64,000 bases of DNA from Spizellomyces punctatus DAOM BR117 (Eukaryota), in NCBI GenBank assembly GCA_000182565.2, contig KQ257452.1. The stretch is one strand, 5' to 3'. The notes beneath the pieces are model-generated. The model was not told the DNA's origin and made no database searches. It worked only from the letters and a program-made list of their open reading frames with translations. Below are positions 13,400 through 58,481 of the stretch, piece after piece (the stretch's first letter is position 1; each line of letters starts with the position of its first letter). A program made the translations under genes and the position numbers.

Positions 13400-16300
13400 A
13401 TGACCAGCGAGGCCGGACAAAGGCAGGAATCGCCAACGGAAAAGGAGGTGTGTGCAGCAGCTAAAATCGTTCGGGAAAAATAGCATAGCAAGTACGAGCT
13501 TGCGTAAAAGCTACTTTGGTTTTGAGCTTTTTTCAATTCTGAATCTTGCCCAAGCCGTAAATTGCCGCCCAAAACCTATGGGGATGCTGGATATCTAAGG
13601 ATGAAAATTGAAGGGAATTTCTCCTTTGTATAGATCGGTCAGTTCGATACCGCTTTCAATGACAAACCGCCACATACATCTCCGGCGCAGGAAGAGCCCT
13701 CATCTGGAGGTGCACCGGTAGCAGTGGACCTGACCCTCCAAAACAACAGCGCCGCCGATGATTCTGATTCTAATATTGACCGCCCAGAGAACGAAATCCA
13801 CTCCGACCTTCGCTTTTCTCAGCCAATAGATGAAAATGTAGACGACGACATTGACGCTTCCTCGGTCGGTGCCATGGATGGAGATAACAATTCCGACGTG
13901 GACTCAACTGGGCCTATGGAAGAATATTCATCACATGATCCCGACACAAAGAGCCAATTGCAGGATCACACATCTCTCTCCGAAAAAGAATTCGAACCTT
14001 CCCCCGTACAAGTAAATATGGAATCTTCAAATCGCACATCACCACCTGTAACGCCACCATCGTCTTCTCCTCGACGGCCGGACTTTCTGGACCGACGGCG
14101 GACGTATCAAGGCCCAGGCATATCCCGCCATTCCTCTTTCCCGTCTGTCCAAAGGCATTCCCGCGATGTGTCACCTGTACGAACAGAGTACGGCGGTGAG
14201 CAGGAGGCCGACAATGATGACGTGATGTCTGTTCGCTCAACCATGACAACCCATACTCTACGCGCAAACCGACCGCGTCCGGTCACAAAGTCGCAGAAAA
14301 TCTCCAGTATTCAAAATATCTTCACAGAAAGTCAGAAAATTGCATATGTCGGACTTTGCTACCTCAGCGCCGTGCATAATAAAAAGGCGGATGTGAAAGC
14401 ATGGAAGAAGGCCAATGAGTCGTACACCAAGTGGGCCGATGGATTTATGGAGCGACTATATGCATATCTGGATATAAAGGAGGAGGGTAAGAGCATCTTA
14501 CCAGTCGCGCTGGTGAAACTTGCTGCATCGAACGGGGATTAAAGAGATTTCTGTGACCATTTTGCAGAAAGAGTCATGATCAAGAGCCTTGCCGAGCACG
14601 GTCTTGTACCCTCCGATCTCTCTAAATCACTCATAGACGATGCCAAAAAGGCGGCACAGATTATCAAAGACCGACAAGAGCGTCGCCAACGCGCCGAACA
14701 AGAAGCGCTTGAAAATGGGATTCCCTTTGAGCTGGACGGTATAGAAGATTCTGACGACAACATGGACCCAACAGACATTCGATATACTATTTTGACGCAT
14801 TTGTTTATCCTGTGCATCGCGGATGGGCGGTATGATGCACGGAGTCGAGCTGTTCTGAGGTCGGTTGCAAACGACTTGGAGGTTCCGTGGCTGGATGTGG
14901 TCAAACTGGAAAGAGCAATAGCGGAGCAACTGCGCATTTACGAGGACAGCGAGGAAGTGAAAGGGGACGTGGAAGTGATAGGAAAGAGGAATGTGGCTGA
15001 TAGTAAAAAACGATGGTTATTTACCGGACTGGCCACTCTTGCTGGCGGTGCTGTTATCGGATTAACCGCCGGATTGGCCGCTCCTCTCATTGCTGGCGGT
15101 ATTGGGGTGGCCCTGGGAACGTTTGGTGTTACGGGGGCTACTGCCGCTCTTTCGACTACTGGAGCTCTGGCTCTTATTACTACAGGAGGAGTGCTTACCG
15201 GTGGAGGTAGGTAGCATTTAGTTACCATACCGTTCAAATCCAAACATCCATACTTCCATTTTTGTAGGCATGGGTGGGTTCAAGATGATGAAACGGACCA
15301 AGGGAATCACGCAATTCGAATTTTTGTACATCGAGGACGCGCTAAGGCTCATAGAGGAGAACAAGGAGAAGAGACGAACGGAAAGAAGGAAACGGAGACG
15401 AAGGGAGGCGCGCCAAGCACTACAGGACAAGTTGGATCAACAGCGAGTATCAAAAGAGGAGAAAAGAAAAGCGGCGGATGACCAGAATGCGGACGGAAAA
15501 TCCCCGATACACGAGGCCGGAGAGGGCACAAAGGGTGAAGAGCTGGAAAATGTTGCTGAAATGCCCGAAGAGTTACCACGCTATGAGCCTGCAAACCAGG
15601 ATAAGCTCAATCGAATCGGACATTGGGTGAGCATTTCGGAAAGCCAGCGAAAGGAACTCGACAAAATGACTGGCGACTCTCCTGGAAAGAGAATCCCTCC
15701 GCCTATTCCCAACAGACCAACTGCCGCTGAGCTTGCCAGCGTGGCAGAGCGGGCAGCCACTGTAGACGCCTCCCCGGCAAAATCTGTACCACCGCGTCTC
15801 GTTGTATCTACGACAATGGATGCGACTGAAAGCTGCGCCTCGTCTTCGATTCTCACATCTGGGGATGATCTCGGTCTGACACATGATTGGGGACTTGACG
15901 AAGGGCTGGGATTATCGGATGGTAGTCATGATGAAGGTGGGATTAATATCTACTCGGAAACCATGTATGGAGCCGGTGGGTTGGATGCAAACGTTTTGGA
16001 GAGCACTCTATTATGGGAATCGAGTCCTCAACTCCATAGCGAGAATGAACTCGAGCTGAAAAGTGTACGTAAGATGCCAAGCTTCAATCCTGGGGATCTG
16101 GATGATGTGGGAACCATCGACGAAGAAATGGCCGCTGCAATGTTCGACGATCTTCAGTCTACCATCGCCGGTGACGAAGATGATGGAATTCGGTTCAAAG
16201 AACCCGAAGGTCCACCGAAAGCAAAGCAAACAAACGTCCTCATAACTATTGCCGGATGGATCACCTATGGTCCCGATGACCACACCCTTCCGTTTTCCAC

Positions 16301-18188
16301 TTTAGAGCATGACGTGCATGGTGATCAATACGCTTTGTGTTGGGAAACAGACGTGCTTCAAGAGCTGGGCAGTGCTTTGAAGTTGTTGGTTGGGGAAGTG
16401 GCTAGTTTCCTTGTGCAGCAAGGACTGCAAGCAACTGTATTGTCGACCTTGATGATTGGACTAGCGGGGCCATTATGGGTGATGAAATTGAGTTACTTGG
16501 TGGATAATCCATGGGGAAATGGATTGAGCAAAGCAAACAAGGCTGGCAGGGTAAGTTGAGAGACGTGTTTGATTGAAACCCTGTTGGCAGCTGACAAACA
16601 GTTCTCCTTTCAGGTTCTTGCCGACACTTTAATGCAAGGCGTGCAAGAAAACCGACCAGTCAGTCTTATTGGATTCTCCTTGGGTGCGCGTGTCATCTTT
16701 CACTGCCTTCTCGAATTGGCGTCTCGTGGAGCGTATGGTATTGTTGAGGACGTTTATTTGCTCGGCTGCCCCGTAATGGCGCAGAAAAACGAATGGGAGC
16801 AGATTGCCTCCGTCGTAAGCGGCCGTCTTGTTAACGGCTATTCGACCAACGATATGGTGCTCGGCGTCCTATACAGAGCGAGTGTTGCGGTGTGGAACAA
16901 TGTCGCTGGACTTCGGCCTGTGGAAGGAGTCGCCGGGGTTGAAAATATTCAATTGGACGACGTCATTCAAGGGCATTTGGATTATCGACTGTGCATGCCT
17001 AAGATATTGGAAAAGCTCGGATTTTCCGTTACCCGGGACTATTTTGATGATGAGGATGAGGAGGAGGAGAAAGAGCGTATGGAAATCGAGGAAGAAAAGA
17101 GAAAGGAGAAGGAAGAAAGACTGCGAGCCAAGGAGGTGAGATTGAAAAAGAAGCAGGAAGAATACGAGGAGAAATTGCGAAAGAAGAAGGAAGAGCAAGA
17201 GCGAAAGCAAAAGGAACGGGAAGAGAAGGAAAGGTTGAAAGAGGAAGCTCGCCGTAAAAAGGAGGCGGAAAAGGCCGCAGCAGCGACCTGGGCCGGGAAA
17301 GATACAAGCGACAAGGTCAACCGATTAAGTTGGTTCGCGCGGCGTAGTAGCGGCCGTGCAACGCCCACCCCAACACAGGAGAAGGTACCGGACGAGATCG
17401 AGCAGTTGATGCAGAACTACTGGATGCCAAGGGAAATCAAAAGCACGCTGCCGCCTTTGGTTATTAAATCGCCCGAAGATGCTGTCATTCCTAAAGAAAT
17501 CAAGACCACGCTTCCACCGCTTGTAATCTCTAGCGCAGAGATCGATGATGATGGTACAGATGCAGCGAGGTCGACAGGTACAGACGCACCTAAATCGGTA
17601 AGGGAAAATGCAGAGGGGAGCCTGCCCGACCTTACCTCGCCACCTCCAAGCTCATGCCCACCGGATGCTCCGGACACAAACGACGACCTAGTCGCGGCGC
17701 AAACGGAGCTATATGAAGCAGAGGCTGAGGTTGAAGCAGCCAAGAGGGAAGTTGCCGAAGCAGCGGCGGCAGCCGCTGCTGCAGCAGCCGGGAGTTTGGG
17801 ATTGAGGGTTACTCTCGAAAATGGAACCGAACTGGAGCAGATTATCATTGCGGCCCAGAAAGACGGTACTGCAGGTGCTGGCGCAGGGGACAAGCTCGAC
17901 GGAAGAGCTGGTATTGATGGCCATGAGAAGGACGATGATGAATTTACCGACGGGATAACGCCATCATCCCCGTCCTCTCAACCCATCGTCCCCCCAGAAG
18001 ACGCACAAGATCTAGGCGTATGGCACAAACGTAGTACTGAAAATATACCCGAAGGCTTCCTCGATCCTCAGCCAAAGATTGAACCAAGCCTAAAGAGTCC
18101 AGGCGTGCATTCGTTCATGTCCTCATCATCTGACGACTCAAGCGGTAGTGCGTTCGTGGACGCCCGAGAAAATCCATGGGTTGGATAG
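13400..18188 (+). CDS. DUF726/TMCO4 (Mil1-like) membrane alpha/beta-hydrolase-fold protein
   Basis: DIRYTILTHLF..DGRYDARSR, Gly-rich TM segment GGAVIGLTAGLAAPLI, LVDNPW, RPVSLIGFSLGARVIF, GHLDY. First exon 13400-13447 is inferred from an in-frame splice to 13634. Confidence 0.85.
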
Positions 18189-23883: not shown

Positions 23884-24962
23884 TTATCACTTTGAGACAA
23901 ATAATAATGTATAGGTGACAGAAACTGGCACTAGCTACTACACCAGGGAATAAACCAGCGTAAACTGGCTCGGGAAAAGCTAACTAAGCTACTACTAGGC
24001 AATTATACACGCAATACGTAACGGTTGGTTCTAACCGTATAATTGCCCACCACCACATCGCGTTTCTACTGGGCCTTGATCCGGAACTGTTGATTGACAT
24101 TGAAGTCAGAGTCATCGCATGAGAGTTAATATCGTCAGGGAGACTCACAAGCCGGAGGATTTTCAGTAATGAAGGCTTGGAGACTAAACAAGTGCAAGTC
24201 AGCCAGATGACAGAAATGACAAGAAATGCCATCGGTACATACCAACCAAGCTCAACAAATGTGGCAGCATAATAGCAGTTTTGTTAGCGGATCTGATTGG
24301 TTGCCGCTGGTTCTGATCGCGGTTGCTGTCGGGCAGTTGAGGTCCTCGGCACCACCACATCTGCATTCTCATGATTGGACCGAGTCGCAATGAGAGTTGC
24401 GATGTGGGTCATGATGAGCGTTTGCGCAGATGGTTTGAGAGTCGAGGATGGGTAAAGAGGAAAGAGGGAAGAGACAGCAAAAGGCCCCCTTTTTATAGAC
24501 CTTTGGCATGTGCCTCACCGCAGGTTGGAGGAAAAAAAAAACATTACATTAGCATGCCACAGTGCTTTGATTAGCATGCATGCCTCACCGCTTTGAGGGA
24601 TAGATGGGGGTGCTGATTATGCGATATGATTAACCGGATTATCCGGATAATAATGGGTCTTCGTGCCATTTTCAATCGCCTCCACACTATGTTGCTTGTG
24701 TTGGAACACGTTGACTAAACTGTGCCACTCTTCATTTTGCCTATTTCGGAATGTCCAGTCGGCAAACGAGTCCAGATGGTCGCGAGCAAACGACCAACTC
24801 TGTTCTTGGTGACCGTTTGAACGCTCCAAAGTTCTTCCAACATCTTCGCGTCCTTTGGCATCGCTGGTAGCTTGGTTCTCACTGGCTTGGTTTCGCCTCT
24901 TGCTAGTAGCCACATAGCACAGAAGCTACGGGGAGACCTTCGGACTAGCGTTGGGCGGGCAA

Positions 24963-45002: not shown

Positions 45003-48000
45003 CTATACAGCCCTTCTCTCAACAACTTGATTCCAAATATCCTCATCAACAGTCCCTTTACAAATAAACCGCCACACATGGACTTTTTTCGTCTGCCCAT
45101 ATCGTCGAACCCGTCCAATAGCTTGAGTTTCGCACGCATCATAGACTTCCGGCGTCTCAAGATGCAAAGGGGATACGAAAATAACATGATTGGCTCCCGT
45201 TAGATTTGCTCCACTGGCTTCTTCATTGGTTGCAGTTAAAAGTAGAACCCGAGTTCCATCAAGATCGTGGTCGACATCAAGGTCATCCATATTCTGGAAT
45301 CGTTCCACAGCTTTGCTCATTTTCGTTGCGCCGCCCTCAATCTTGAGGTGGGCGATACGAGCATCGTCGAGCGCCTCGCTCACCTTCTGCTTGAGTTCAG
45401 GAAACTGGACAAAAATCAGGATACGATCCGTACTTGGGATCTTGTCCTTTATCAACGATACGATGGCGGAGAGTTTTGCTCCGTGGCCAGAACCAAAATC
45501 GTCTTGATCGACTCCAAGACTTTCTGGGGTTACTATAAAATTGCTCCGGGCTGCAACTTGACATCCAGGCGTCACGCATGTTTCTTTCTCGGCTTCCTCA
45601 AGCACACATGTTTGGCATCCCAAGTGTCCACAACATGAAAGGAAGACAACCTGGTCATAGTTGTCAGGCAGGTGGAATGATTTTTGACATTTTGGGCAAA
45701 TGACCTCGGCTTGTTTGCGGGTTTGAACATCTCGTACCGCTTGAATATATCGCAATGATCGCAACCGATTGACCAGTTCTTTTTGTACTTTACGTAAACG
45801 GTGGGTATGCTCTCGCAACTCCCATTTCTTGTCAGACAGAGTTGGGGCCTTTTTGGGTTTACCCGTATCTTCATCCTCATCATCATCATCCAAAAAGTCG
45901 TCATCCGCCGATTTCCGTTTAGAAGAACCCACTTTTTTCTTTCCATTTTGCTGCGTTTTCTTGATCATATTCCCAACTGGTTTCAAACTCGTATCTCCCA
46001 TGTTTTCTTTCCCTTTGCCCTTCTTGTTGCCCAATTGTCCCATGTTTTTAACAATCTCCGCGACCAACAGCCCTGTATCGACATCATCGCTTCGTCCGGC
46101 CAGAGCCTGTCCCCACCACCTCTCAAGCGGCAAATCATCTCCTTCTTCATATCCACCATGATCCAAGATCCAAGAATGCAGTGCTTTGGCATCATTCAAG
46201 TGCTCCTCAAACAATTGTCGACATTCCTCCAACTGCGCTTTTCGTTCAATCACAATCTTTTCACAAGCTTCCGCAGCGTTCCTGACGCGCAATTGCTGTT
46301 TTTTGCCATCCCGTCCAGGCGATCGCAATTCCAAATCAAAATGAGAGCACCGAATCAAAAGGGCTTGTTCGGGTGACTTCATTTTTTCTAATGCGAGACC
46401 TAGCCGGAGTTCACGGTCCCCTTGAGCTGCCTTGCCTGCCCTGACCGTCTTTCTGACATTCATCTCGACACTCAGCAAGTAATGCTGTAGTTCGTAATAG
46501 AGGGCAAGTTCTGCAGGGGGTAACTGTATAGGCATGATATGCTCCTCACACAAAATCTCATCAATCTCTGCAATATTCTGACGCACGAAGCCATCCAAAA
46601 ACGTTTGAGCAACCGCATGTCGTCGGGCATGCCAAGCAGCCGTATGCACCTCCCGGAACGAATGAAATTTTTCGGCAGCTGTTCGCTCATTAAGTCGCTT
46701 TTTAACCATATCTTCACCCATTTCGGCATCATCATCCACTCCTAGATGCAAACCAAGGAAACTTGCAATGGTTTTGACGGTAGCGAATTCGTGGACCGGA
46801 GAAGTTCCAGATAGGACCCACCGGTAATTGGATCGTAGTTCCAAGATGCATGCATAGTCTTTGCCCGTTACATAGGTGTACTCGTCAACTACGATACGGT
46901 TGAAATAAAACATTTCGAGAGGTGGGCATTGCATTTTTTTCCAGTTTTTTTGTACGGATTGTGTTTGGAGGTTCCATGGATCTTTATCTTCACGGGATGT
47001 GGTATCGGCATTTTTAGATTTGGACGTTTTACGTTTGTCGTAGGTGTCCATCACATCACTACTATCGCCATCTTCCAGGTCATTCAACTCTTCACCTGTT
47101 TCGTCTGTTTGTTGCTTCAACTGATCCCGGTAGGCCTTGGTGCCCCTCACCTGCTTTTGGACAGGTACAGTCTCATCACTTCCTTGCTGTTTCCTCCTCA
47201 ATAACCCCTCTTTAACAGCCTGGATAACCAACTTGACGCCGTCGGTTCCGCCAATCTCGGTCAACTCCTTGACGCGAATTTTGAGCTTTTCCAAAGCCTC
47301 CTGATATCGGATATTAAAATACCGTCCCTCAGAAACAGGCAAGAGCTCACTTCCAGCCAATCCAGATAAATTAGACCAGTAATTGATACCCGTCAAAACA
47401 CTCCGCGCGCAAATAATGATATCCGCTTCCTCAAAATCCGCGACAGTCGTTTTATTAAAATTAGCCACATTGAGCATGGTGAGGACTTTGAACCGGTTTC
47501 CAGTAAACTTTTTGATTTCCGCTGGCCATTGTGCTACCAAATGAGATGGAACAATGATTAATGTTGCTTTGATGGGGATACGCCCTTCGAGTTGCGAGGG
47601 AGGCGGGGGAGGCGGGGGAGGTAGGGACGCAGCGTAGTCAATGAGACCGAGTGTGATGGCGGTCTTTCCGTATCCGACTTGGTCAGCTAGGACACCCCCT
47701 CGAACAAATACTTGCCGCTCCGCCTTGGCTTCTACACGCCACCCCAACGGTTCCAAAACAGCTTCTGAAACCTCTTCTTCAACAAAAGGTTCAATGGTAG
47801 CTTGCTCTTGACGCACCATCCACGTTAAAGACCGACTTTGCTCCTTTCTCAGCTTGTACCGCTCAAAATGCGGCGGCTGCTCATGTTCCGGATCCAGTTT
47901 GTTACTCTTGACTTCAAGAGGTTTCAATTTCTCTTCTTGGTCAGTAAATTCTGTGGAAAGTCGCCACGATACTCGAGGGGATTCGGGACGGTCTTTACTA

Positions 48001-51000
48001 GGTAATCTCGATAGGGCCCGATGAACCAAAGACGCAACATTCACGCCGAGACGGAGCATACCCAAGGTACCATCCAAACGGAATTGAGCGACAAAAGGGG
48101 CGGGTCGCCGCTTTAGATTCTGTTCGTAAGCACCAGCTTGTTGGGGATCTTCGAATGCAGAGGCACTCGTTCCTTTGCGGATCCAGAGCAGTTCTGGAGG
48201 TGTTGGAGCACATCGCTCGCAAGGAGACGGTTTCCCTCGCTAACACATACAAAAAAAAAAAAATCAAAAATCAGCAACTACTCCAAACTTTTTATTAGAT
48301 TCACTCACATCATCAATATCATGCACACCAGGAACATCCATCCAATCCTGAAGGGCAGTAATTCCCTTTATCCGCTCCGTAATCCACGCCAAAGACTCAA
48401 ACGTCGACCGTCCCCGATGCAACAAATCAATTTCCTCCCACTTGTCACGAGGCCATACAGGCTCTGCATGCGTAAGCGGGACTTTACACGTCAAGACGGC
48501 AGTAGCGGTTTTACATGCATCCTGTTTGCAGGAAACTGATAATGGTCCTGCTGGTGTGCTGACGGTACCCTGGAGAGTAGCCTCGGTGGTTGGGACGAGT
48601 CGTGCGCATTCCAAGGTAGCCCATTTGCCTTTGACGTGACAAGCAACGGATTGAGGTCCGTCAACAGAACTAGGTCGCCATTTGGGATCCAATGTAGCGT
48701 TTACAAGGCGGACTTCTCCATAGGGTAATCGACGTGCATTGGTTGAGAAATTGAATGCATCCCCACTTTGCTCACCGCAAGGTTGTGGATCAAAAAAAAA
48801 GAACAATGGGAGTTTTTGGTCATCGGTGGATGCTGGTCGCTTTTTATGGAGGGCGTTCATGGCCGTTCCGCACTTTTCCAGCAAGTCATATGTACCCGAG
48901 AGATCGCGATCCAAATACACCCGTGCATCATCAGGGATCCCGGAAATCTCCAACTGAGACCACCATTTCCCAGATGCAAGGTGATTCTGCAAGCCAATAC
49001 GTGCTTCCCATGATTCAACAAGTTCACCCCGTCCAGTGATCGTAATGGAAAATGATTTGGATGCAGGGAAACATACTTCCCACGTCCCACTGAAAAAACT
49101 CGTGTCCTGGCTCTTGAGATCCAAATACATTCTGGCTGCTGGGCTAGCAAGGAGACTTCGTAGACGGCCATTGACAGGTTCGTCCTCGGGGGCTTTAATA
49201 GTTAACTGCCATACGGGCTGGTGGGGATCGATGATGAGTTCAAGTATCGCCATGGGTGCGTCATAAGTAACAACCCAATACTCTTGTCGCTTGACAGATC
49301 TGAATCGGAATTCATTCTTGACGGCGTTCACAACAGCGTCGTGCCAGAGTGTCCAATCCTTGCTGACAAGATCGATCGTGTCATGCTGAGATTTGAGCGC
49401 TTCTAGTGCATCCAGTGTAATGCCTTGGAGATGAAGCCGCATGGGTAAGGCCGACCTAAGCTCCTTCTCAAATCCCGTGGGAGATAGTCGATTATCACTT
49501 GTAACCTGTTCATAATAATGTTCAGGCCGAATTCCGCATTTAACACAAGAAGTTGCCCAACATTCTCGGCATTTCTGAATCTTTTCTTTGGTGACACCCG
49601 TTCGTCCCTCACAGTCACACTGCCGGCTACTTCGATCCGCATCCGCAACCAAAGCCTCCAACGACATGTTGGTATAGGTGCCTAGTTCGAGTGGGAGTTC
49701 ATTGAGCTGGTCATCTCCCCCAATGGTAGGAAACGGATCCAATTCAATTTGTTTCGGAGGTACACCCGACCCCGGCTCCAAAGTATCCAAAGACACAACA
49801 AGAGCAGCCAACATGCACGCACCAACCACGGTGGTGGTCATGGCGTTACCAGCCAAATCATGCAAATTCCGCTCCGATTCGCGGGTCAGTAACAATTCAT
49901 CAACAGGGATTCCCTGGAGATTCAGCGCCTCACGACCGACAACAGGGCCTCCACGGCTCGTCACAAACGGTATAACCCTCGGAGTCAAACAAGGACAAAT
50001 ACCCGGCCGAACACTTGTACTAATCCGATCAACATTCTGACTTAGTTCCCATACCAGCGTCTTGGACATGGCGTCAATGCCCTTGACAGCCATCTTTAGG
50101 TACAGAATATCAATGGAATCAAGCACACGCGTAGACTGACTAGCCCCCCAATCATTCCACGCATAATCAGGAAACCGACACACACTATTCGGTTCCCATC
50201 GCGAAAAAGGACGCTTGATACCTAATCCTTCTTCAATCCGCTGACGTTCATGCCGACTTTCACAGCGTTCCCAATCCGTTCGAGCGGCCCTGCGATCCAC
50301 ACTCGCACGCGCAAGGTCGAGTCGAGCTTGATGGACACGAGGATCATCTGTTGGGAGGAGGAAGGCTTCCAAAGGGGATGAAGCGGGTCGTTGCATGGAT
50401 TTGACAAGGTTGATCCACATTTCTGGGAGGTTTTTGGGTCCTTCTGCTGCAGCAAAGAGGTACCCACGTGTTCGGGTATGCGGGATATAGTAATCCTTGG
50501 TATCAAACCGGGTAGCCGTGACTTTATACCGGATTTTAGTAAATTCGTGTTGCATGCTCGTCCAATCGGCTCCACAGACGTTTTCGAGGATAACGAGTTT
50601 AGGACGACATGTTTTGACCCAGTTTAACATTCCCCAAAACGTTCGGCCAGATTCGCCGCCGGCGTGGATGCCCTTTTTCTTGTTATTTAGGTTAGAGTAG
50701 TCGACGCAGGAGGTTCCTGCTACGAGGAGGTCGACTTTGACGTTTGGGACTTGCACGAGGGATCCGTATGCGGTGGTTGCTTTTGGGTTGGCGAGTTCGC
50801 ATACATCGCGGAATAAAATGGGTGGGGAAAAGTTGCGTTCAATGTAGGCTTGTTTAAAAGGTTCGATTTCACAACTAAAGACATGGTCAATCTCAAATTT
50901 GATTCCATGGTGACGTTCAATGGAGCGAGATATTTGGCCGAGGGCCAATAGGGGACTCTCGGTTCCGCTGCACATGGTAGCGACACGGAGTTTGCGGCCT

Positions 51001-51584
51001 TGGAGTCGTTTGGCTACTGTGGCGCTTTCGGGTAGGTTTTTGACCATGTCGAAAAACATGGCTGGGATATCTTGGATGGGGGGAAATTCCGTGGCATGCA
51101 GTTTTTGTTTCTTTCGCGCGGGGCCGGTGATGGGTTTATGTTGCAGTCGCTTTTTGATGGGGGATGCTTTCTGCGGGGTGAATTTGAAGATGTTCTTCCA
51201 GGCGGCTATTGGGGACTGTAACGGGGTCAGTTTGGTTGGTGAAGTCATGGGTGGTGAAGGAACCTCTGGCAACGTCTTGACCCGTTTCGAAAGAGGCGAG
51301 TCAAAGGCTGCATTTTGTCTCCTTGTATATTCCACCGCCGCTCGTTTGGTCCCGACTCTCGACGTAATGACCACAAACGGTCCCTTCACATCCTTCTTGA
51401 CCGACGACCGTCTCCGCAGACTCCTCCGTCGAATATCATTCCCCTTGAACGCATCCTCGTCAACAGATAATTCCTCCTCACTCGCGACACTTGGCTCAGA
51501 CATCGAGTCGGATATATCATCACCGCCATTCCAGTCCTCGTCATCCGAAACGACAAGAGACTTTCGTTTGCGTACCATTACCAT
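45003..51584 (-). CDS. DNMT5: DNMT5-type C5-cytosine methyltransferase fused to RING and SNF2 ATPase (about 2,170 aa, 2 exons)
   Basis: MTase motifs LRVATMCSGTESP, SCEIEPFKQAYI, LVAGTSCVDYS (catalytic Cys), ILENV, R.RGY, LAGNAM. SNF2 motifs GGVLADQVGYGKT, VVDEY, VLSGTSP, QAIGRVRRYGQ. RING-like CPKC..CCGH.GC..C..C...C. Intron 48240-48308 (GTGAGT...TTAG) keeps the frame. Confidence 0.9.
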
Positions 51585-52323
51585 TCTTTACTCGTATATT
51601 CAATTCTGCAAGAAGGTAGTGGGAGGTAAAAAGCATCCGGGCACCATGTGTGTCCGAAGACACGGACGTGCGACGTGCTTTAGTAAGCGTCCAATTTCGA
51701 TTTGCAAGGGGGTTTTGGCAAGGGAGTTTTTCTCCATCTCTCACCGTGATCAGTACCCGCACCTACTTTTTACATACAAGAAGACCCCCTTACAAAAAGA
51801 TCCAGAGTTTCTTATAGACTTCCATTCATGTCGGCGCGTCAGACTGACAAGTGGCCACACCCTTACGCGGGTTCCCTTCCTGACCCTCTCGCCCTTGCCG
51901 CCGAACAACTCGGGAGTATCCCAGATCAAGTATGGCCAGCCCAATCCACACTTTTACAGTACGGAGCGCCAGATCCTGCTATACCAGCTCCTGCAATACA
52001 AGTGCACTCAAAGCAAAGCTCGAAGGTACGATTCCAAAACCATTTTCATTGAAACACTTTTTAACATTTTTTGTCAATAGGCAAGGGCAGGTGAGAGGCA
52101 CCGAACTGCGTCTCAAAACACAGAGAACACAGAATCACGGGCCGATATAGAACGGGTACAAACTCTCGAAGCCCGTTTAAAAGCTCTTGAACAGAGTAAC
52201 CCTGTAGCCAGACCCATATCAGCATTACGATGGACACGGGACCAAGTTCTGGGTATAAAGTTTTCACGATACATCTTGTCAGACCGTATCGAGATCCATC
52301 GCGTTGCAACTGAATTGGACGTC

Positions 52324-54429: not shown

Positions 54430-55161
54430 ATGCATTTACATTTCCCATTCCTCTTGTCGCTCCTAAGCATCCTCACACTAACGACCTCCCAAACCATAAA
54501 ACACATTTCCCAATCCGAACTCACCAAACTCGCCACCCAAGCCGACCAAAACATTACATTTATCCCCCACACGGTGTTCAAGCAGACGATATCCGATGGG
54601 ACCTGGTTGGTGTTTTTTGGGGCGAGGTGGTGCAAGTATTGTAAACAGTAGGTTTTCAATGTTTTGTTTGGTAGCTTTAGAATGGGAGTTGAAGTGTTGG
54701 GCGGTTTAGGTTGTCGCCGACTTGGTTGACGATTCAGGAGCGGGTGCTCGATGCGGTGCAGGGGATCAAGATGGGAAAAGTGGATTGCACGGATCAAGAA
54801 GGTAGGTTTTGGAAAGAGTGGATCTTTAAAGAAAAAGACAAGAGGGTTGATATCGATTTTCTTTAATACAGAGTTTTGTGAAGAGGAGGGTGTGGATGGG
54901 TATCCAACACTTCATCTGTACGTTATTTTTGCAATTATTTTGTTGGGTGTTGTAAATGATGGCTGATGACATGGCATAGATACAATAACGGTAAACTGAT
55001 TGAAGAATACGATCAAGGTCACGATCTAAAGAGTTTGTACACGTATGTTGTGACAAAGGTATGTTTTTTGTGTGTGTGGATTGTACTGGTGGTTCATGCG
55101 ATGGTAATTTGTTCATGTGTAGGCGAGTTATTATCAGAAATTGCGACGAGAGGATTTGTGA
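54430..55161 (+). CDS. ER-resident single-thioredoxin-domain PDI-family protein
   Basis: Signal peptide, WLVFFGARWCKYC (WCxxC), MGKVDCT, GVDGYPTL, last exon ending ...RREDL* (KDEL-like). Four introns. Confidence 0.85.
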
Positions 55162-55406
55162 TATGTGTGATTGCGTGGTGATGATGGCGATGATGGTGAT
55201 GAGTTTGTGAGAACGGCGTGGGATGAGAGGATGGGAGCGGGTACGAGTAGAATGGGAATGCGGGGAATGATGGTAGATGTGAGGTCCATGATGGGACATT
55301 AGAAAGGACAAGGACGTGTCGAATAATGTGTGCCATCGTTGCCTAGAGGCATTTGTCGAGATAGGGCATATAGAATGTGTATGGGATAAACAAGCCTGTC
55401 CAGAGA

Positions 55407-55497
55407 ATACAAGATGATGGATAGTGCGGACGCCGGTGGGTATTGGCACTAGCACCCGCACCAGGGATGAACCGCGCGACAACCGGCTCGGAAAACC
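55407..55497 (-). ncRNA. Predicted Fanzor omegaRNA: about 75-nt scaffold (55497-55422) + about 15-nt flank-derived guide (55421-55407)
   Basis: - strand GGUUUUCCGAGCCGGUUGUCGCGCGGUUCAUCCCUGGUGCGGGUGCUAGUGCCAAUACCCACCGGCGUCCGCACUA|UCCAUCAUCUUGUAU. It lies between the stop codon and the element end, with complementary segments GCCGGU/ACCGGC and UGGUGCGG/CCGCACUA. Exact ends are inferred from characterised Fanzor loci. Confidence 0.82.
55424..55455 (+). repeat. Right-end terminal inverted repeat (32 bp)
   Basis: Matches the left TIR with one inserted base and two substitutions. Confidence 0.92.
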
Positions 55498-55510
55498 TAA
55501 TCTAACCAAT

Positions 55511-57415
55511 CTAAGCTACGGCTGGAACACCCCTGCTGAACACTTCTGGTCTACCGTGTCCATCCAACATTGATTGCACGATCGTTAGCATATTGCAGGT
55601 GCTCAGCGTATCTCGATTCCAGTAGCGCATCGTCCAGGCTTGCTGCAAACAGTTAGGGTTGGTACAACCCAGCAATCCATGGACTTTTTCAATCTTGCCT
55701 TCTCGTCGTCGATAAGGTCTTGAATGAGGTCGTTCTTTGAATTTTTTCTCCACAAACTCAGATGAGGAACAGCGAGGGCAAACAGATGAGGTCTTGTACT
55801 CGTCGAGAAGGAAACAATCAATGCGGTTGCGCTTAAAGAGGGTGCGCCAGCCTTTTGTCTTTGATGAGGTCTGAAATCTTGCAGTTCGACCGGCGTCGCT
55901 CCAATCACCCATTACAACAGTAAGGTTTTCACCGTACTTGTTGCGCATGTTACTTATGAGGTCTGATTCGCTCTTCTGACGGTTTATGAAGGAGTGCCAT
56001 TTCCATCGAGTATGAGCAGGATGCGAATAGAAGTCCTTGCGGCGGTTCCAGTCGACACGACGGACGAGGAGGTAGCGGAGGAAATCCATGAGGTTCATCG
56101 TCTTGTGAGATGGTATTCGCGATTCTATAAGGTCCATTCCCGCTTCCTTCTTCATCCACTGCCGTTCCTTTTGCTGCCGACGGCTTCCAGTCTCCTTGCA
56201 GCGTTGATTGGCGGTGTAACGGAAGATGGTGCCCTTGTTGTCTTGGCAGTAGAGAACGTCGCGCTTGTTTGGGTCGATAACGACGACGTTCTCTGCTGCT
56301 CGACAAGCAGGCAAGTTTTTTTCCACATATACTGCCTTCACCTCAGCTGCTAGAGTCTTTGCCGACTTCTTCTTTCCTCCGCGCTTTCCGTACTTGTCGG
56401 CGTCAGGGTGTTTCAAATACACAGACACCGAGGTTCCGTCCGTCGTGATCGAGCCTTCAAACTGCATACCGCCGCCGCGGCGAGACCGAAAAGCCTTCGT
56501 GCGTAGATTGCAGACGCGCAACCACAGATCATCCTTTTCGACCGCTTCTGCCTCTCTGCGAAAAATGCAAAGAATGTGGGTGTAGAGAATGACGGTGTCA
56601 ATCCGGACATGGCTTTGAATGAGAGACCGGCGAAGAGGTATCGCGCTGAACCGTCGGAAGCCATGTCGTTCATACAGCCCAGAGAGTTTGCAGTACGCAG
56701 GAAAAAATGACATCGGATCAGCAACAATGGCGTAGGCAAGGGGATTGTCGGGAAGGAATGGGAGATCCAATGACCAGATCTCTTCTAGAAGTTCACTCTC
56801 TTCAGCAGTCAAATCATCGAGCGACTCAGGCACGATATCAAAAAGGAAAATTGACTTCAAGTAGCGAAGACGAGCAAAGAAAGCGTTTCGCGCATCGCTT
56901 TTCAGTGGTAGTCGCTGCTTCTGTCCCTTCAGATCAAGCCGCAGATTAATGTACCGGAGCAGCATCATCATGAAGTGTTCCTGGACATTGACCTTCAGAT
57001 TCGTCATCATACTCGCTGTCAGGTAATTGACTGATTGTTGCTCGCCTCGCAGGTTTGGATGAGAAAAATCAACGATGCGGCAGTACCGTCGAACATATGG
57101 CCACAAGCATTCACGTAACGCCTTCTTCGCATCAGTTTTTGGTTGCCACGATTCACCTTTGTTGAGAAGATAGAGGATGACTTCAATCGTCTCTTGATTT
57201 ACCGTGGGAAAAGCTGGTGCTGATGAAAGGAGATAGAATTTCAGTGCGTGGGAAGCATGGTTGGCGAGTTGATGGATGATGGCAATGTAATCTAGAAGCC
57301 GTTGGCGGGAGATCTCGTTTGGCAGGAAAGCTTTTGCAAAGGAAGTCTTGTTGCAGGTATGTAAGCAAGTAGGTTTGTCGAGTTTTTCGAGTTTTTGCTT
57401 TTTCTTTGGTGGCAT
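55511..57415 (-). CDS. Fanzor1: Fanzor1 RNA-guided endonuclease (eukaryotic TnpB/Cas12-like), 634 aa, intronless
   Basis: N-terminal NLS-like PPKKKQK; TDGTSVSV; RuvC-I VVVIDPN; RuvC-II LLDEYKTSSVC; zinc finger CPRC...CTNPNC; RuvC-III WNRD. Closely resembles, but is not identical to, SpuFz1 as I recall it. Confidence 0.95.
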   Translation of the reverse strand: MPPKKKQKLEKLDKPTCLHTCNKTSFAKAFLPNEISRQRLLDYIAIIHQLANHASHALKFYLLSSAPAFPTVNQETIEVILYLLNKGESWQPKTDAKKALRECLWPYVRRYCRIVDFSHPNLRGEQQSVNYLTASMMTNLKVNVQEHFMMMLLRYINLRLDLKGQKQRLPLKSDARNAFFARLRYLKSIFLFDIVPESLDDLTAEESELLEEIWSLDLPFLPDNPLAYAIVADPMSFFPAYCKLSGLYERHGFRRFSAIPLRRSLIQSHVRIDTVILYTHILCIFRREAEAVEKDDLWLRVCNLRTKAFRSRRGGGMQFEGSITTDGTSVSVYLKHPDADKYGKRGGKKKSAKTLAAEVKAVYVEKNLPACRAAENVVVIDPNKRDVLYCQDNKGTIFRYTANQRCKETGSRRQQKERQWMKKEAGMDLIESRIPSHKTMNLMDFLRYLLVRRVDWNRRKDFYSHPAHTRWKWHSFINRQKSESDLISNMRNKYGENLTVVMGDWSDAGRTARFQTSSKTKGWRTLFKRNRIDCFLLDEYKTSSVCPRCSSSEFVEKKFKERPHSRPYRRREGKIEKVHGLLGCTNPNCLQQAWTMRYWNRDTLSTCNMLTIVQSMLDGHGRPEVFSRGVPAVA

Positions 57416-57465
57416 GATGATATCTGTGGAAAAAGACGAAAGCCTGGGAAAATGGGCACGACAAC

Positions 57466-57472
57466 TTATATA
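57466..57472 (-). promoter_or_regulatory. Putative TATA box for the Fanzor gene
   Basis: CC-TATATAA-G on the - strand about 50 nt upstream of the ATG, inside the element. Confidence 0.5.
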
Positions 57473-57545
57473 GGACTTTTTGGATCAAACCAGAGTTCAT
57501 GAGTCTAAATCGAGTAAAATTATGATTAAATTGGTTGGAATCTTT

Positions 57546-57576
57546 GTACTAGTGCCAATACCCATCGGCTCCGCAC
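57546..57576 (-). repeat. Left-end terminal inverted repeat (31 bp), preceded on the - strand by 5'-CATA
   Basis: + strand GTACTAGTGCCAATACCCATCGGCTCCGCAC-TATG. Confidence 0.92.
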
Positions 57577-57703
57577 TATGTACCTTGTAAGATATCGGAC
57601 GCTGAGTCACACGCGACTGTCCACGCAGCTAAGCAACACGCTTCTGGCTGTGATTCCCGCTGTGATTCCCACTTCAACTATTGTCTGTTTGACATTTTGC
57701 AAA

Positions 57704-58481
57704 ATGGCCCGTCACTCGACTAGCGCAGTGCGCCCCAGCACATCCCGCCAACCAAGCACCCCACCACCTCCACCAACCCCACCATCACCAGCCCTCTTTT
57801 CTCCCACCCCAATCCTCCACGACCCATACGAAACAGACATTGAAGACCTCACGACAGCAGCACTCGAAAAAACAGACGCATTTTTCCGGGAATTCAAGCT
57901 TTTTGTATTGCAGAATCGGGTCTTGGAGACGGGTGTGGGTGTTATTGTTGGTCAGGCGTATGTATTTATAAGAGATTTGCCAGAACGAGAGCATTTTGCC
58001 AATTCGGTCCATCATTATATAGATTCCAAGATTTTGTGCGTAGTTTTGTCAACGATGTCATGGTACCCCCTCTTACACTCGTCACCGGCCACCGCCTCAT
58101 CAACATCTTTTTTGTTCTCCGCCGAGGCAAAACCGGCCGTCGTCCCAAAACGATTGAAGAAGCCGCGACCGATGGAGCCGTGACAGTCAACCTAGGCCGA
58201 TTCATTCATCAGACACTCAATTTTTTTACGGTTGGGATGGCGGTGTATTGGTTTTTGAGGGGGTTGAGATGGTATTTTCGGTTACGAGTTCAGTTGCCGG
58301 ATACGAAAAAGTGTCCGTTTTGTTTGCAGGATGTTGCCTTGTTGGCTTCTAGGTGCGTGCGATACTTTGTTTGCTGGATGATTCATGTCTTTTCATGTTT
58401 TGTTTATTTTTTTTAATTGATTCTAGGTGTTGCTTTTGTACTTCGATGCTCTCGGAATCTCATGCACCCCCAACTGAATAA
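57704..58481 (+). CDS. mscL: MscL-family large-conductance mechanosensitive channel with C-terminal zinc ribbon
   Basis: FFREFKLFVLQNRVLETGVGVIVGQA-FQDFVRSFVNDVMVPPL, VTVNLGRFIHQTLNFF, TKKCPFC...R-CCFCTS. Two introns. Confidence 0.85.

What the first reader, a model, noticed from the sequence alone, without database searches (positions are those of the whole stretch)
55407..57580. Complete eukaryotic RNA-guided nuclease locus: Fanzor1 + omegaRNA + TAM inside a TIR transposon
Seen: an intronless 634-aa ORF with an intact RuvC triad (D codon at 56273-56275 in VIDPN, E at 55799-55801 in DEYK, D at 55610-55612 in NRD), a CPRC/CTNPNC zinc finger and an N-terminal NLS-like PPKKKQK. It is bounded by 31/32-bp TIRs and TA duplications, with a structured non-coding tail of under 90 nt between the stop codon and the right end. 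Established: Fanzors are eukaryotic relatives of IS200/605/607 TnpB (the Cas12 ancestor), and Spizellomyces punctatus Fanzor1 is a programmable omegaRNA-guided dsDNA nuclease. Inference: this copy has all parts intact and is a candidate active paralogue. The system class is published; whether this copy has been tested I cannot tell.
Basis: partly seen in the sequence, partly recalled or inferred. Interest (0 to 1): 0.92.

Follow-up and report, generated by a model that had tools for sequence, protein, structure and literature searches.

The report
Paralogous copy of published SpuFz1 Fanzor element

Summary
A 634-aa intronless ORF (55511-57415, minus strand) sits in a 2,153-bp element (55424-57576) with terminal inverted repeats and a TA on each side.

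The protein matches the solved SpuFz1 structure (8GKH) end to end (E=0). It is 86.7% identical to SPPG_07727, the tested SpuFz1. It keeps 4 of 4 metal ligands, 4 of 4 zinc-finger cysteines and 43 of 48 published nucleic-acid contact residues.

The 89-nt tail after the stop codon holds a 75-nt omegaRNA scaffold. Its numbering and two-stem fold fit the published RNA, and a 15-nt locus-specific guide follows. CA plus TA upstream of the left end spell the published CATA TAM.

This is the SPu-1/Spu-1 family described in 2013 and characterised from 2023 to 2026, where 19 full-length loci were counted. This copy is a paralogue, not the tested protein.

Differences from the tested locus: K replaces the TAM-groove arginine R96, and the RNA linker is one base shorter. 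Base 55431 is missing from all locus-specific reads. Expression of this particular copy is not shown.

Verdict: real, correctly interpreted, already known in kind, low interest.

The parts
57579..57580 (-). CA dinucleotide just outside the left end. Together with the adjacent TA it spells CATA, the published SpuFz1 TAM.
   Evidence: Sequence read. Saito 2023 section 7 reports a conserved CA upstream of the 5' IR and a 5'-CATA TAM. The same CATA precedes the ghost element's left end.
57577..57578 (-). TA at the left end (target-site duplication copy).
   Evidence: Bao & Jurka 2013 report putative TA TSDs for SPu-1.
57546..57576 (-). Left terminal inverted repeat, 31 nt.
57416..57545 (-). 130-nt leader between the left repeat and the start codon. 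A promoter or 5' UTR role is inferred only.
   Evidence: RNA depth here is inflated by reads from other copies.
55511..57415 (-). Fanzor1 ORF, 634 aa. Features: NLS-like PPKKKQK (57392-57412); RuvC D381 (56273-56275), N383, E539 (55799-55801), D602 (55610-55612); zinc-finger C546/C549 (55769-55780) and C584/C589 (55649-55666).
55422..55496 (-). omegaRNA scaffold, 75 nt as assembled (74 nt if base 55431 is absent, as in the reads). Unpaired 5' UUCC, stem-loop 1 at nt 8-28, linker at nt 29-33, stem 2 at nt 34-75.
   Evidence: With nt 1 set at 55496, the published positions U5, C6, C7, U16, G17, U18, C19, G20, G22, A29, C32, G70, A72, A75 and U76 all carry the right letter. Fold; 74-nt form.
55424..55455 (-). 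Right terminal inverted repeat, 32 nt as assembled. It forms most of the 3' arm of omegaRNA stem 2.
55422..55423 (-). TA at the right end (target-site duplication copy). It also forms the last two scaffold nucleotides, U74 and A75.
55407..55421 (-). Predicted 15-nt guide, transcribed from the flank beyond the right end. It occurs once in the window.
   Evidence: Published guide length is 14-15 nt, starting at U76.

Best explanation
This is one full-length copy of the SPu-1 (Spu-1) non-autonomous TIR element of Spizellomyces. It carries a Fanzor1 gene that is a paralogue of the tested SpuFz1, plus its own omegaRNA.

Mechanism, taken from the published family and fitted to this sequence:
1. The 634-aa protein enters the nucleus through its N-terminal basic peptide.
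2. It binds a roughly 90-nt RNA transcribed from the right end, made of the scaffold (55496-55422) and a 15-nt guide copied from the flank (55421-55407).
3. The complex cuts double-stranded DNA that carries 5'-CATA next to a match to the guide, using the RuvC site D381/E539/D602 with N383.

The sequence shows that an unoccupied copy of this insertion site would be exactly such a target: flanking CA, one TA, then the right flank. In the occupied locus the four bases before the guide match are ACTA, so that locus is not a target. This fits a TnpB-like role in cutting empty sites so that the element is copied back by repair. Transposition itself must use a transposase supplied in trans.

Shown here: homology, residues, ends, RNA fold, and the TAM/guide geometry. 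Inferred: that this copy is expressed and active, and the homing role, which is unproven for any Fanzor.
For: - Full-length match to the solved SpuFz1 (E=0, residues 2-634). 546 of 630 aligned positions are identical to P0001/SPPG_07727.
- Of 40 database relatives with E<=1e-10, 17 are named S. punctatus DAOM BR117, at 77-87% identity. The published spread among copies is about 82%.
- Residues identical to the published SpuFz1 contacts: metal ligands 4 of 4, TAM contacts 5 of 6, heteroduplex contacts 13 of 13, scaffold contacts 21 of 25. Zinc-finger cysteines are 4 of 4.
- The element is 2,153 bp with 31/32-nt repeats, TA on both sides and CA upstream. This matches the published descriptions.
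- The scaffold numbering fits the published nucleotide identities, and the two-stem-plus-linker fold is recovered.
- UUCC followed by a hairpin is also predicted in 4 of 4 other related right ends examined: the ghost element in this window and metagenome loci L008, L005 and L002. Their stem letters differ, but the aligned loop shares an invariant CGC.
- DNA reads of run X20 cover 30 of 30 bins, including both flanks. An X1 contig joins unique flank to the right repeat with 0 other letters.
- The N-terminal peptide is identical to that of SpuFz1. A 2026 paper says that peptide has intrinsic nuclear-localisation function (PMC13434818, passage).
Against: - Nothing shows that this particular copy is expressed. 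In RNA run X19, with about 6 in 100 of the run read, the ORF body 55863-57253 has depth 0 on the ORF's strand in 12 of 13 bins and at most 2 on the other strand.
- The sense-strand depth over the 3' end (38, 17 and 9 in bins 55435-55755) comes mostly from other copies: at 55531, 21 of 25 such reads carry the other letter.
- R96, which contacts the C of the TAM, is K93 here. A REC-loop arginine inserting into the TAM groove is described as conserved among three solved Fz1 proteins (PMC11423790, figure legend); that this arginine is R96 is my inference.
- The linker is 5 nt against the published 6 (A29-C34). R419, which contacts that linker, is E417 here. W570, which stacks on U5, is Y568. S598 falls in a 2-residue deletion.
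- The local Pfam copy gives no hit at E<=1.
- No transposase lies inside the element.
Confidence: 0.85

Rival explanations
1. An intact-looking but non-functional or silenced copy. The ORF is open only because the copy is young, and it contributes no active RNP because of transcriptional silence, the R96K change, or the shortened linker.
For: ORF-body RNA depth is about 0-2 in X19. Most 3'-end RNA reads carry letters of other copies. 5 of 48 published contact residues differ, including the TAM arginine, and the linker is 1 nt shorter. Bao & Jurka found intact ORFs in only 9 of 17 full-length copies, so decay is ongoing in the family.
Against: - All catalytic, zinc and heteroduplex residues are kept.
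- 4 of the 5 differing contacts are shared with other open paralogues: K at R96 in P0005; Y at W570 in P0004, P0006 and P0009; T at M607 in most; E at R419 in several.
- Natural ghost scaffolds of 74-76 nt work with SpuFz1 (PMC13434818, passage).
- Only about 6% of one RNA run was read, and poly-A-type libraries lose 90-nt RNAs.
Confidence: 0.3
2. The same family but in a different Spizellomyces strain or species from the published DAOM BR117 genome. The locus would then be an uncatalogued member rather than one of the 19 published full-length loci.
For: No protein at 90% identity or above to this ORF is in the 5.8-billion-protein collection (best 85-87%). The neighbouring DNMT5-like gene found no S. 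punctatus protein in either length band searched; the best hit was Spizellomyces sp. 'palustris' at 93%. Base 55431 differs from all reads.
Against: Reads of four coded runs match the unique flanks at 97% or better. One 330-nt contig piece has 0 other letters. Transposon ORFs are often left out of gene annotation. Lengths of 1888-1938 aa were covered by neither search.
Confidence: 0.2
3. A domesticated host gene derived from Fanzor that is no longer part of a mobile element.
For: It is a single copy in this window, lying between two host genes: thioredoxin-like upstream and MscL-like downstream.
Against: Both inverted repeats, the TA duplication, the CA motif and the omegaRNA scaffold are all in place. 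The family is multi-copy: read depth inside the element reaches about 739 against 10-50 in the flanks, with many alternative letters.
Confidence: 0.02

Closest known systems
SpuFz1 (SPPG_07727, S. punctatus DAOM BR117; PDB 8GKH and 9CEU-9CEZ), Saito et al. 2023, Xu et al. 2024
   Same: Full-length collinear homologue. 86.7% of 630 aligned positions are identical. It shares the same RuvC ligands, zinc finger, N-terminal basic peptide and lid region, the same locus layout, the same scaffold architecture, and CATA upstream.
   Different: 634 aa against 638, with six small indel sites. R96K, W570Y, R419E, M607T, and S598 deleted. It naturally carries R where the engineered, more active SpuFz1-v2 has C310R. 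The linker is 5 nt, not 6, and the guide is different.
SPu-1 element / SPu-1-1p (Bao & Jurka 2013, Mobile DNA 4:12)
   Same: About 2.1 kb, a single intronless ORF of about 633 aa, terminal inverted repeats of about 30-33 bp, TA duplications, and no transposase inside.
   Different: The paper reports copies about 92% identical to the consensus.
Ghost Spu-1 elements (Saito 2023; 126 unique scaffolds collated in Nat Commun 2026, PMC13434818)
   Same: Same left-end start (CATA then GTG.GGAG) and the same UUCC-hairpin right end. One such element lies in this window at 23912-24691.
   Different: Ghosts carry no Fz ORF. The one in this window is about 0.78 kb, and its right repeat is shorter than its left.
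IS200/IS605 and IS607 TnpB (for example ISDra2 TnpB) and Cas12
   Same: It works the same way. A RuvC nuclease is guided by an RNA made from the element's right end plus flank, and the TAM is formed at the left-end junction, so the empty site is the target (Saito discussion).
   Different: It is not a member. The element has inverted repeats and a duplication instead of subterminal hairpins, no TnpA, and a larger REC domain. The omegaRNA does not overlap the ORF and lacks the pseudoknot (passages).

Membership tests
Fanzor1, SpuFz1 type | Full-length sequence homology to a solved or tested Fz1 | tested here: met
   8gkh_P E=0, 1240 bits, query residues 2-634; 9cf0_P 8.1e-49
Fanzor1, SpuFz1 type | RuvC metal ligands D383, N385, E541, D606 | tested here: met
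   D381, N383, E539 and D602 are all identical, 4 of 4. Ligands are taken from section 10 of PMC10432273.
Fanzor1, SpuFz1 type | Zinc finger in the NUC/TNB domain (CxxC ... CxxxxC) | tested here: met
   C546, C549, C584 and C589 are present. Each is conserved in 11 or 12 of the 12 relatives aligned.
Fanzor1, SpuFz1 type | TAM-reading residues R96, Q129, Q130, N133, R291, Y345 | tested here: inconclusive
   5 of 6 are identical; R96 is K93. The effect on CATA reading cannot be judged from sequence.
Fanzor1, SpuFz1 type | [quoted passage not shown] | tested here: met
   Numbering and fold fit. The linker is 5 nt, not 6. The length is 75 nt as assembled and 74 nt by reads.
Fanzor1, SpuFz1 type | RNA-guided, TAM-dependent dsDNA cleavage | not testable with these tools
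   Needs biochemistry.
SPu-1 / Spu-1 TIR element | About 2.1 kb, 30-33-bp inverted repeats, TA duplication, CA upstream of the left end, single ORF, no transposase | tested here: met
   2,153 bp between repeat ends, arms of 31 and 32 nt, TA on both sides, CA at 57579-57580.
Pfam OrfB_Zn_ribbon (PF07282) / PF26935 | HMM match above threshold | tested here: not met
   The local Pfam-A copy gives 0 families at E<=1. All 40 database relatives carry a precomputed PF26935.1, which never appeared in any local Pfam scan; its name was not shown.
IS200/IS605-IS607 TnpB element | TnpA (HUH or serine recombinase) partner, no inverted repeats, no target duplication | tested here: not met
   Inverted repeats and a TA duplication are present, and the only long ORF inside the element is Fz.

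The most novel reading that the evidence does not exclude
This paralogue may belong to a functionally distinct protein-RNA sub-lineage inside one genome. Lysine replaces the TAM-groove arginine, and glutamate replaces the linker-contacting R419. These are paired with a one-base-shorter omegaRNA linker. Together they could give a relaxed or shifted TAM, or preferential pairing with its own scaffold variant. The natural arginine at the C310 position could make it more active than the SpuFz1 that was tested.
Probability: 0.1. Interest if true: 0.45.

Novelty: already known. Interest (0 to 1): 0.17.

Why it matters
The result matters mainly as a check: a reader working from raw sequence alone correctly recognised a complete eukaryotic RNA-guided nuclease locus, down to the guide and TAM boundaries.

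Biologically it adds little. The family is the prototype Fanzor (2013). Its RNA, TAM, activity and structures were published from 2023 to 2024, and its natural scaffold variants were mined in 2026.

There is modest practical value. This is a natural, open paralogue that already carries one of the three activity-raising SpuFz1-v2 substitutions (R at the C310 position), and it differs at the TAM-reading arginine. It could therefore serve as a natural variant for engineering or TAM studies.

Tried and rejected
- Whole-genome search of the window's own assembly: none is held, so the copy number in this genome could not be counted directly.
- Pfam on the ORF: no hit.
- Rfam on 55300-55700: only a chance-level match, RF02837 at 14.3 bits against a gathering score of 49.5, E=0.86. 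No curated omegaRNA family matched.
- Earlier findings of this scan: nothing for this genome or this sequence.
- Sequencing-run index: no RNA holder listed.
- Laid reads could not settle whether this copy is expressed, because reads from paralogous copies dominate.
- Two protein searches with the neighbouring DNMT5-like gene, meant to name the species, returned no S. punctatus protein. The best hit was Spizellomyces sp. 'palustris' at 93%. Lengths of 1888-1938 aa were covered by neither search. The genus is supported; the species and strain are not proven.
- MAFFT alignment A2 of five right ends puts the 3' half of stem 1 of the window copy one column out of register. I did not run pair counting on it, and rely on the five single-sequence folds instead.
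- L006 has no recognisable scaffold after its extended reading frame. L001, L004 and L007 end before or at the stop codon. All four were left out of the RNA comparison.
- Inverted-repeat search found no convincing element ends in L002, L003, L005 or L006.
- Supplementary Data 1-2 of PMC10432273, which list the 42 Fz loci and 134 ghosts, and the supplements of PMC3627910 are closed. I could not check whether this locus is on those lists or is one of the four loci with native small-RNA reads.
Full report
**The observation**

The minus strand carries one uninterrupted ORF, 55511..57415, of 634 aa.
- GAC at 56273-56275 is D381, in VIDPN.
- GAG at 55799-55801 is E539, in DEYK.
- GAT at 55610-55612 is D602, in NRD.

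One search places CPRC at residues 546-549, CTNPNC at 584-589 and PPKKKQK at 2-8.

The ends are inverted repeats: 57546-57576 (31 nt) and 55424-55455 (32 nt as assembled). They differ by two mismatches and one single-base indel. blastn reports 32 identical of 35 columns when the shared ATA is included. TA flanks both arms. From the stop codon to the right-hand TA is 89 nt.

**What the protein is**

phmmer against all PDB chains gives E=0 (1240 bits) over residues 2-634 to the MBP fusion of Spizellomyces punctatus Fanzor1 (8gkh_P and six more entries). It gives 8.1e-49 to Parasitella Fz1.

In the 5.8-billion-protein collection, 40 proteins score E<=1e-10. Of these, 17 are named S. punctatus DAOM BR117, at 77-87% identity. 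None reaches 90%.

P0001 (SPPG_07727, 638 aa) carries the expected letter at every residue number quoted in the SpuFz1 structure paper, so I take it to be the tested SpuFz1. The window ORF is identical to it at 546 of 630 aligned positions, or 86.7%. This copy is therefore a paralogue of the tested protein. The paper says the copies in that genome share about 82% identity (PMC10432273, section 7).

The local Pfam copy gives no hit. All 40 relatives carry a precomputed PF26935.1, which never appeared in any local Pfam scan.

**Functional residues**

I mapped every residue named in section 10 of PMC10432273 onto the window protein.

| Residue class | Identical to SpuFz1 |
|---|---|
| Metal ligands D383/N385/E541/D606 | 4 of 4 |
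| TAM contacts | 5 of 6 (R96 is K93) |
| Heteroduplex contacts | 13 of 13 |
| Scaffold contacts | 21 of 25 |

The four scaffold differences are W570 to Y568, R419 to E417, M607 to T603, and S598 lost in a two-residue deletion. Overall 43 of 48 contacts are identical. The four zinc-finger cysteines are present.

Most of the differing letters recur in other open paralogues, so they look like family variation rather than decay.

Two points deserve notice. First, a REC-loop arginine inserting into the TAM groove is described as a conserved feature of three solved Fz1 proteins (PMC11423790, figure legend). I take this to be R96, and here it is lysine. Second, the position of C310 is arginine here, and C310R is one of the three substitutions of the more active SpuFz1-v2.

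**Ends, TAM and guide**

On the ORF strand the left junction reads flank-CA, then TA, then the repeat. The right junction reads repeat, then TA, then flank.

The published TAM is 5'-CATA, and any single change abolishes cleavage. The published guide is the 14-15 nt of flank transcribed past the right end. An unoccupied site would read CA, a single TA, then the right flank. That would place CATA directly before a perfect match to the guide 55421-55407. In the occupied locus the four bases before that match are ACTA.

So the locus is built to target its own empty site and spare itself. This is the logic proposed for TnpB and discussed, but unproven, for Fanzor (PMC10432273 discussion). The guide occurs only once in the window. 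No transposase lies in the element, as published for the family.

**The RNA**

Setting nucleotide 1 at 55496 makes most published nucleotide identities fit: U5, C6, C7, U16, G17, U18, C19, G20, G22, A29, C32, G70, A72, A75 and U76. C34, U35 and G37 fit only if the window has one base fewer in the linker.

The fold gives an unpaired 5' end, stem-loop 1 (nt 8-28), a 5-nt linker (29-33) and a long stem 2 (34-75). The MFE is -30.7 kcal/mol with z = -2.19, and 7 of 200 shuffles fold at least as well. On its own that is a modest statistic. The published architecture is two stems and a 6-nt linker, A29-C34.

Reads from other copies carry an extra base at 55467, with X20 showing 97 of 319 reads. That restores the 6-nt linker, so both linker lengths exist in the family. 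Natural ghost scaffolds of 74-76 nt are reported (PMC13434818). No Rfam family matches.

**Comparison with related right ends**

A second, ORF-less element lies in the window at 23912-24691 on the minus strand. It has the same CATA-plus-GTG.GGAG left end and a UUCC-hairpin right end. This fits the published ghost Spu-1 class.

A metagenome scan gave 8 loci with Fz1 relatives at 39-57% identity. Four have readable sequence after the stop codon. L002 and L003 are identical there, which leaves L002, L005 and L008 as distinct cases.

All of these, and the ghost, are predicted to form a hairpin straight after a UUCC motif. Their stem letters differ, and the aligned loop shares an invariant CGC. That makes 5 of 5 sequences examined, counting the window copy.

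L008 is an internally deleted element. Its repeats start with the same GTGCG, with CATAG upstream and TA downstream. Five sequences are too few for a formal covariation test, and the MAFFT alignment was out of register for one row, so I did not run pair counts.

**Reads**

Four coded runs were laid at 97% likeness or better.
- DNA run X20 covers 30 of 30 bins. Depth is 10-50 in the flanks and up to about 739 inside the element, with many alternative letters, as expected for a multi-copy family.
- An X1 contig covers 55121-55450 with 0 other letters and one gap, and carries a GT..AG joint at 55056>55121. The upstream plus-strand, thioredoxin-like gene is therefore transcribed into the right repeat, antisense to the guide and stem 2.
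- All locus-specific reads lack base 55431: X19 4 of 5, X1 71.2 of 71.2, X20 3 of 3. Without that base the two arms align without a gap and the scaffold is 74 nt, with the same fold.

In RNA run X19, about 6 in 100 of the run was read. I take the first mate as sense, because the flanking plus-strand gene gives 12.8-91.6 on plus against 0-0.65 on minus. This is an inference.

On that reading, the ORF body 55863-57253 has zero sense depth in 12 of 13 bins. The 3' end shows sense depth of 38, 17 and 9 (bins 55435-55755). However, 21 of 25 such reads at 55531 carry another copy's letter. Expression of this copy is therefore not shown either way.

**Provenance**

The genus is Spizellomyces. The Fz hits are S. 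punctatus paralogues. A DNMT5-like gene in the window is 93% identical to Spizellomyces sp. 'palustris', and every other hit is at most 57% identical. No S. punctatus DNMT5 appeared in either length band searched, and no whole genome is held.

I judge it most likely S. punctatus itself. If so, the locus is presumably among the 19 full-length loci counted by Saito et al. I could not check this because the supplements are closed.

**Verdict**

The thing is a member of the prototype Fanzor family:
- the element was described in 2013 (PMC3627910, passages);
- its RNA, TAM, activity and structure were described in 2023 (PMC10432273, sections 7 and 10 plus passages);
- its conformational states were described in 2024 (PMC11423790, passages);
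- it was engineered, with natural scaffold mining, in 2026 (PMC13434818, passages).

What is particular to this copy is small: K at R96, a 5-nt linker with E at R419, natural R at C310, and an assembly base not seen in the reads. I rate it already known in kind, with low interest. The residual novel reading is that this sub-lineage differs in TAM preference or RNA pairing.

Noticed in passing
window 23912-24691 (-): An ORF-less 'ghost' Spu-1-like element of about 0.78 kb. CATA lies at 24691-24688, followed by a left repeat starting GTGTGGAGG. The right end has the UUCC-hairpin scaffold, TA at 23913-23912 and its own flank-derived guide from 23911. The right repeat is several bases shorter than the left.
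   Followed up: partly
window 55431: This base, inside the right repeat and omegaRNA stem 2, is absent from all locus-specific reads: X19 4 of 5, X1 depth 71.2 of 71.2, X20 3 of 3. It is either an assembly error or a strain difference. Without it the two repeats align without a gap.
   Followed up: yes
window 55056-55450 (+): The transcript of the upstream plus-strand thioredoxin-like gene, spliced at 55056>55121 (GT..AG), runs through its 3' region into the element's right repeat. It is antisense to the predicted guide and to the outer part of stem 2 (X1 contig).
   Followed up: partly
window 55919-55992 (+): A GT..AG joint skipping 72 nt on the strand opposite to the Fz ORF, seen in one X1 contig (depth 13.6) and one X19 read. 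This may be a spliced antisense transcript of this copy or of a paralogous one.
   Followed up: no
window 57575-57788: RNA depth of 13-16 on the ORF's strand lies outside the element, upstream of the left end, in run X19. This suggests read-in transcription from the flank towards the Fz gene. The strand assignment is inferred.
   Followed up: no
window 45003-51587 (-): A large DNMT5-like gene, with a C-5 cytosine methylase domain followed by an SNF2 domain, in two long open frames. It is 93% identical to a 2170-aa protein of Spizellomyces sp. 'palustris'.
   Followed up: partly
L008:1469-2035: A soil-metagenome relative that is an internally deleted element of about 570 bp. It keeps the same GTGCG repeat start, CATAG upstream and TA downstream, only the last ~150 codons of Fz, and a UUCC-hairpin right end.
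   Followed up: partly
window 15222-18188 (+): A DUF726-family gene read as two same-frame open stretches separated by one stop at 16557-16559. The stop probably lies in an intron.
   Followed up: no
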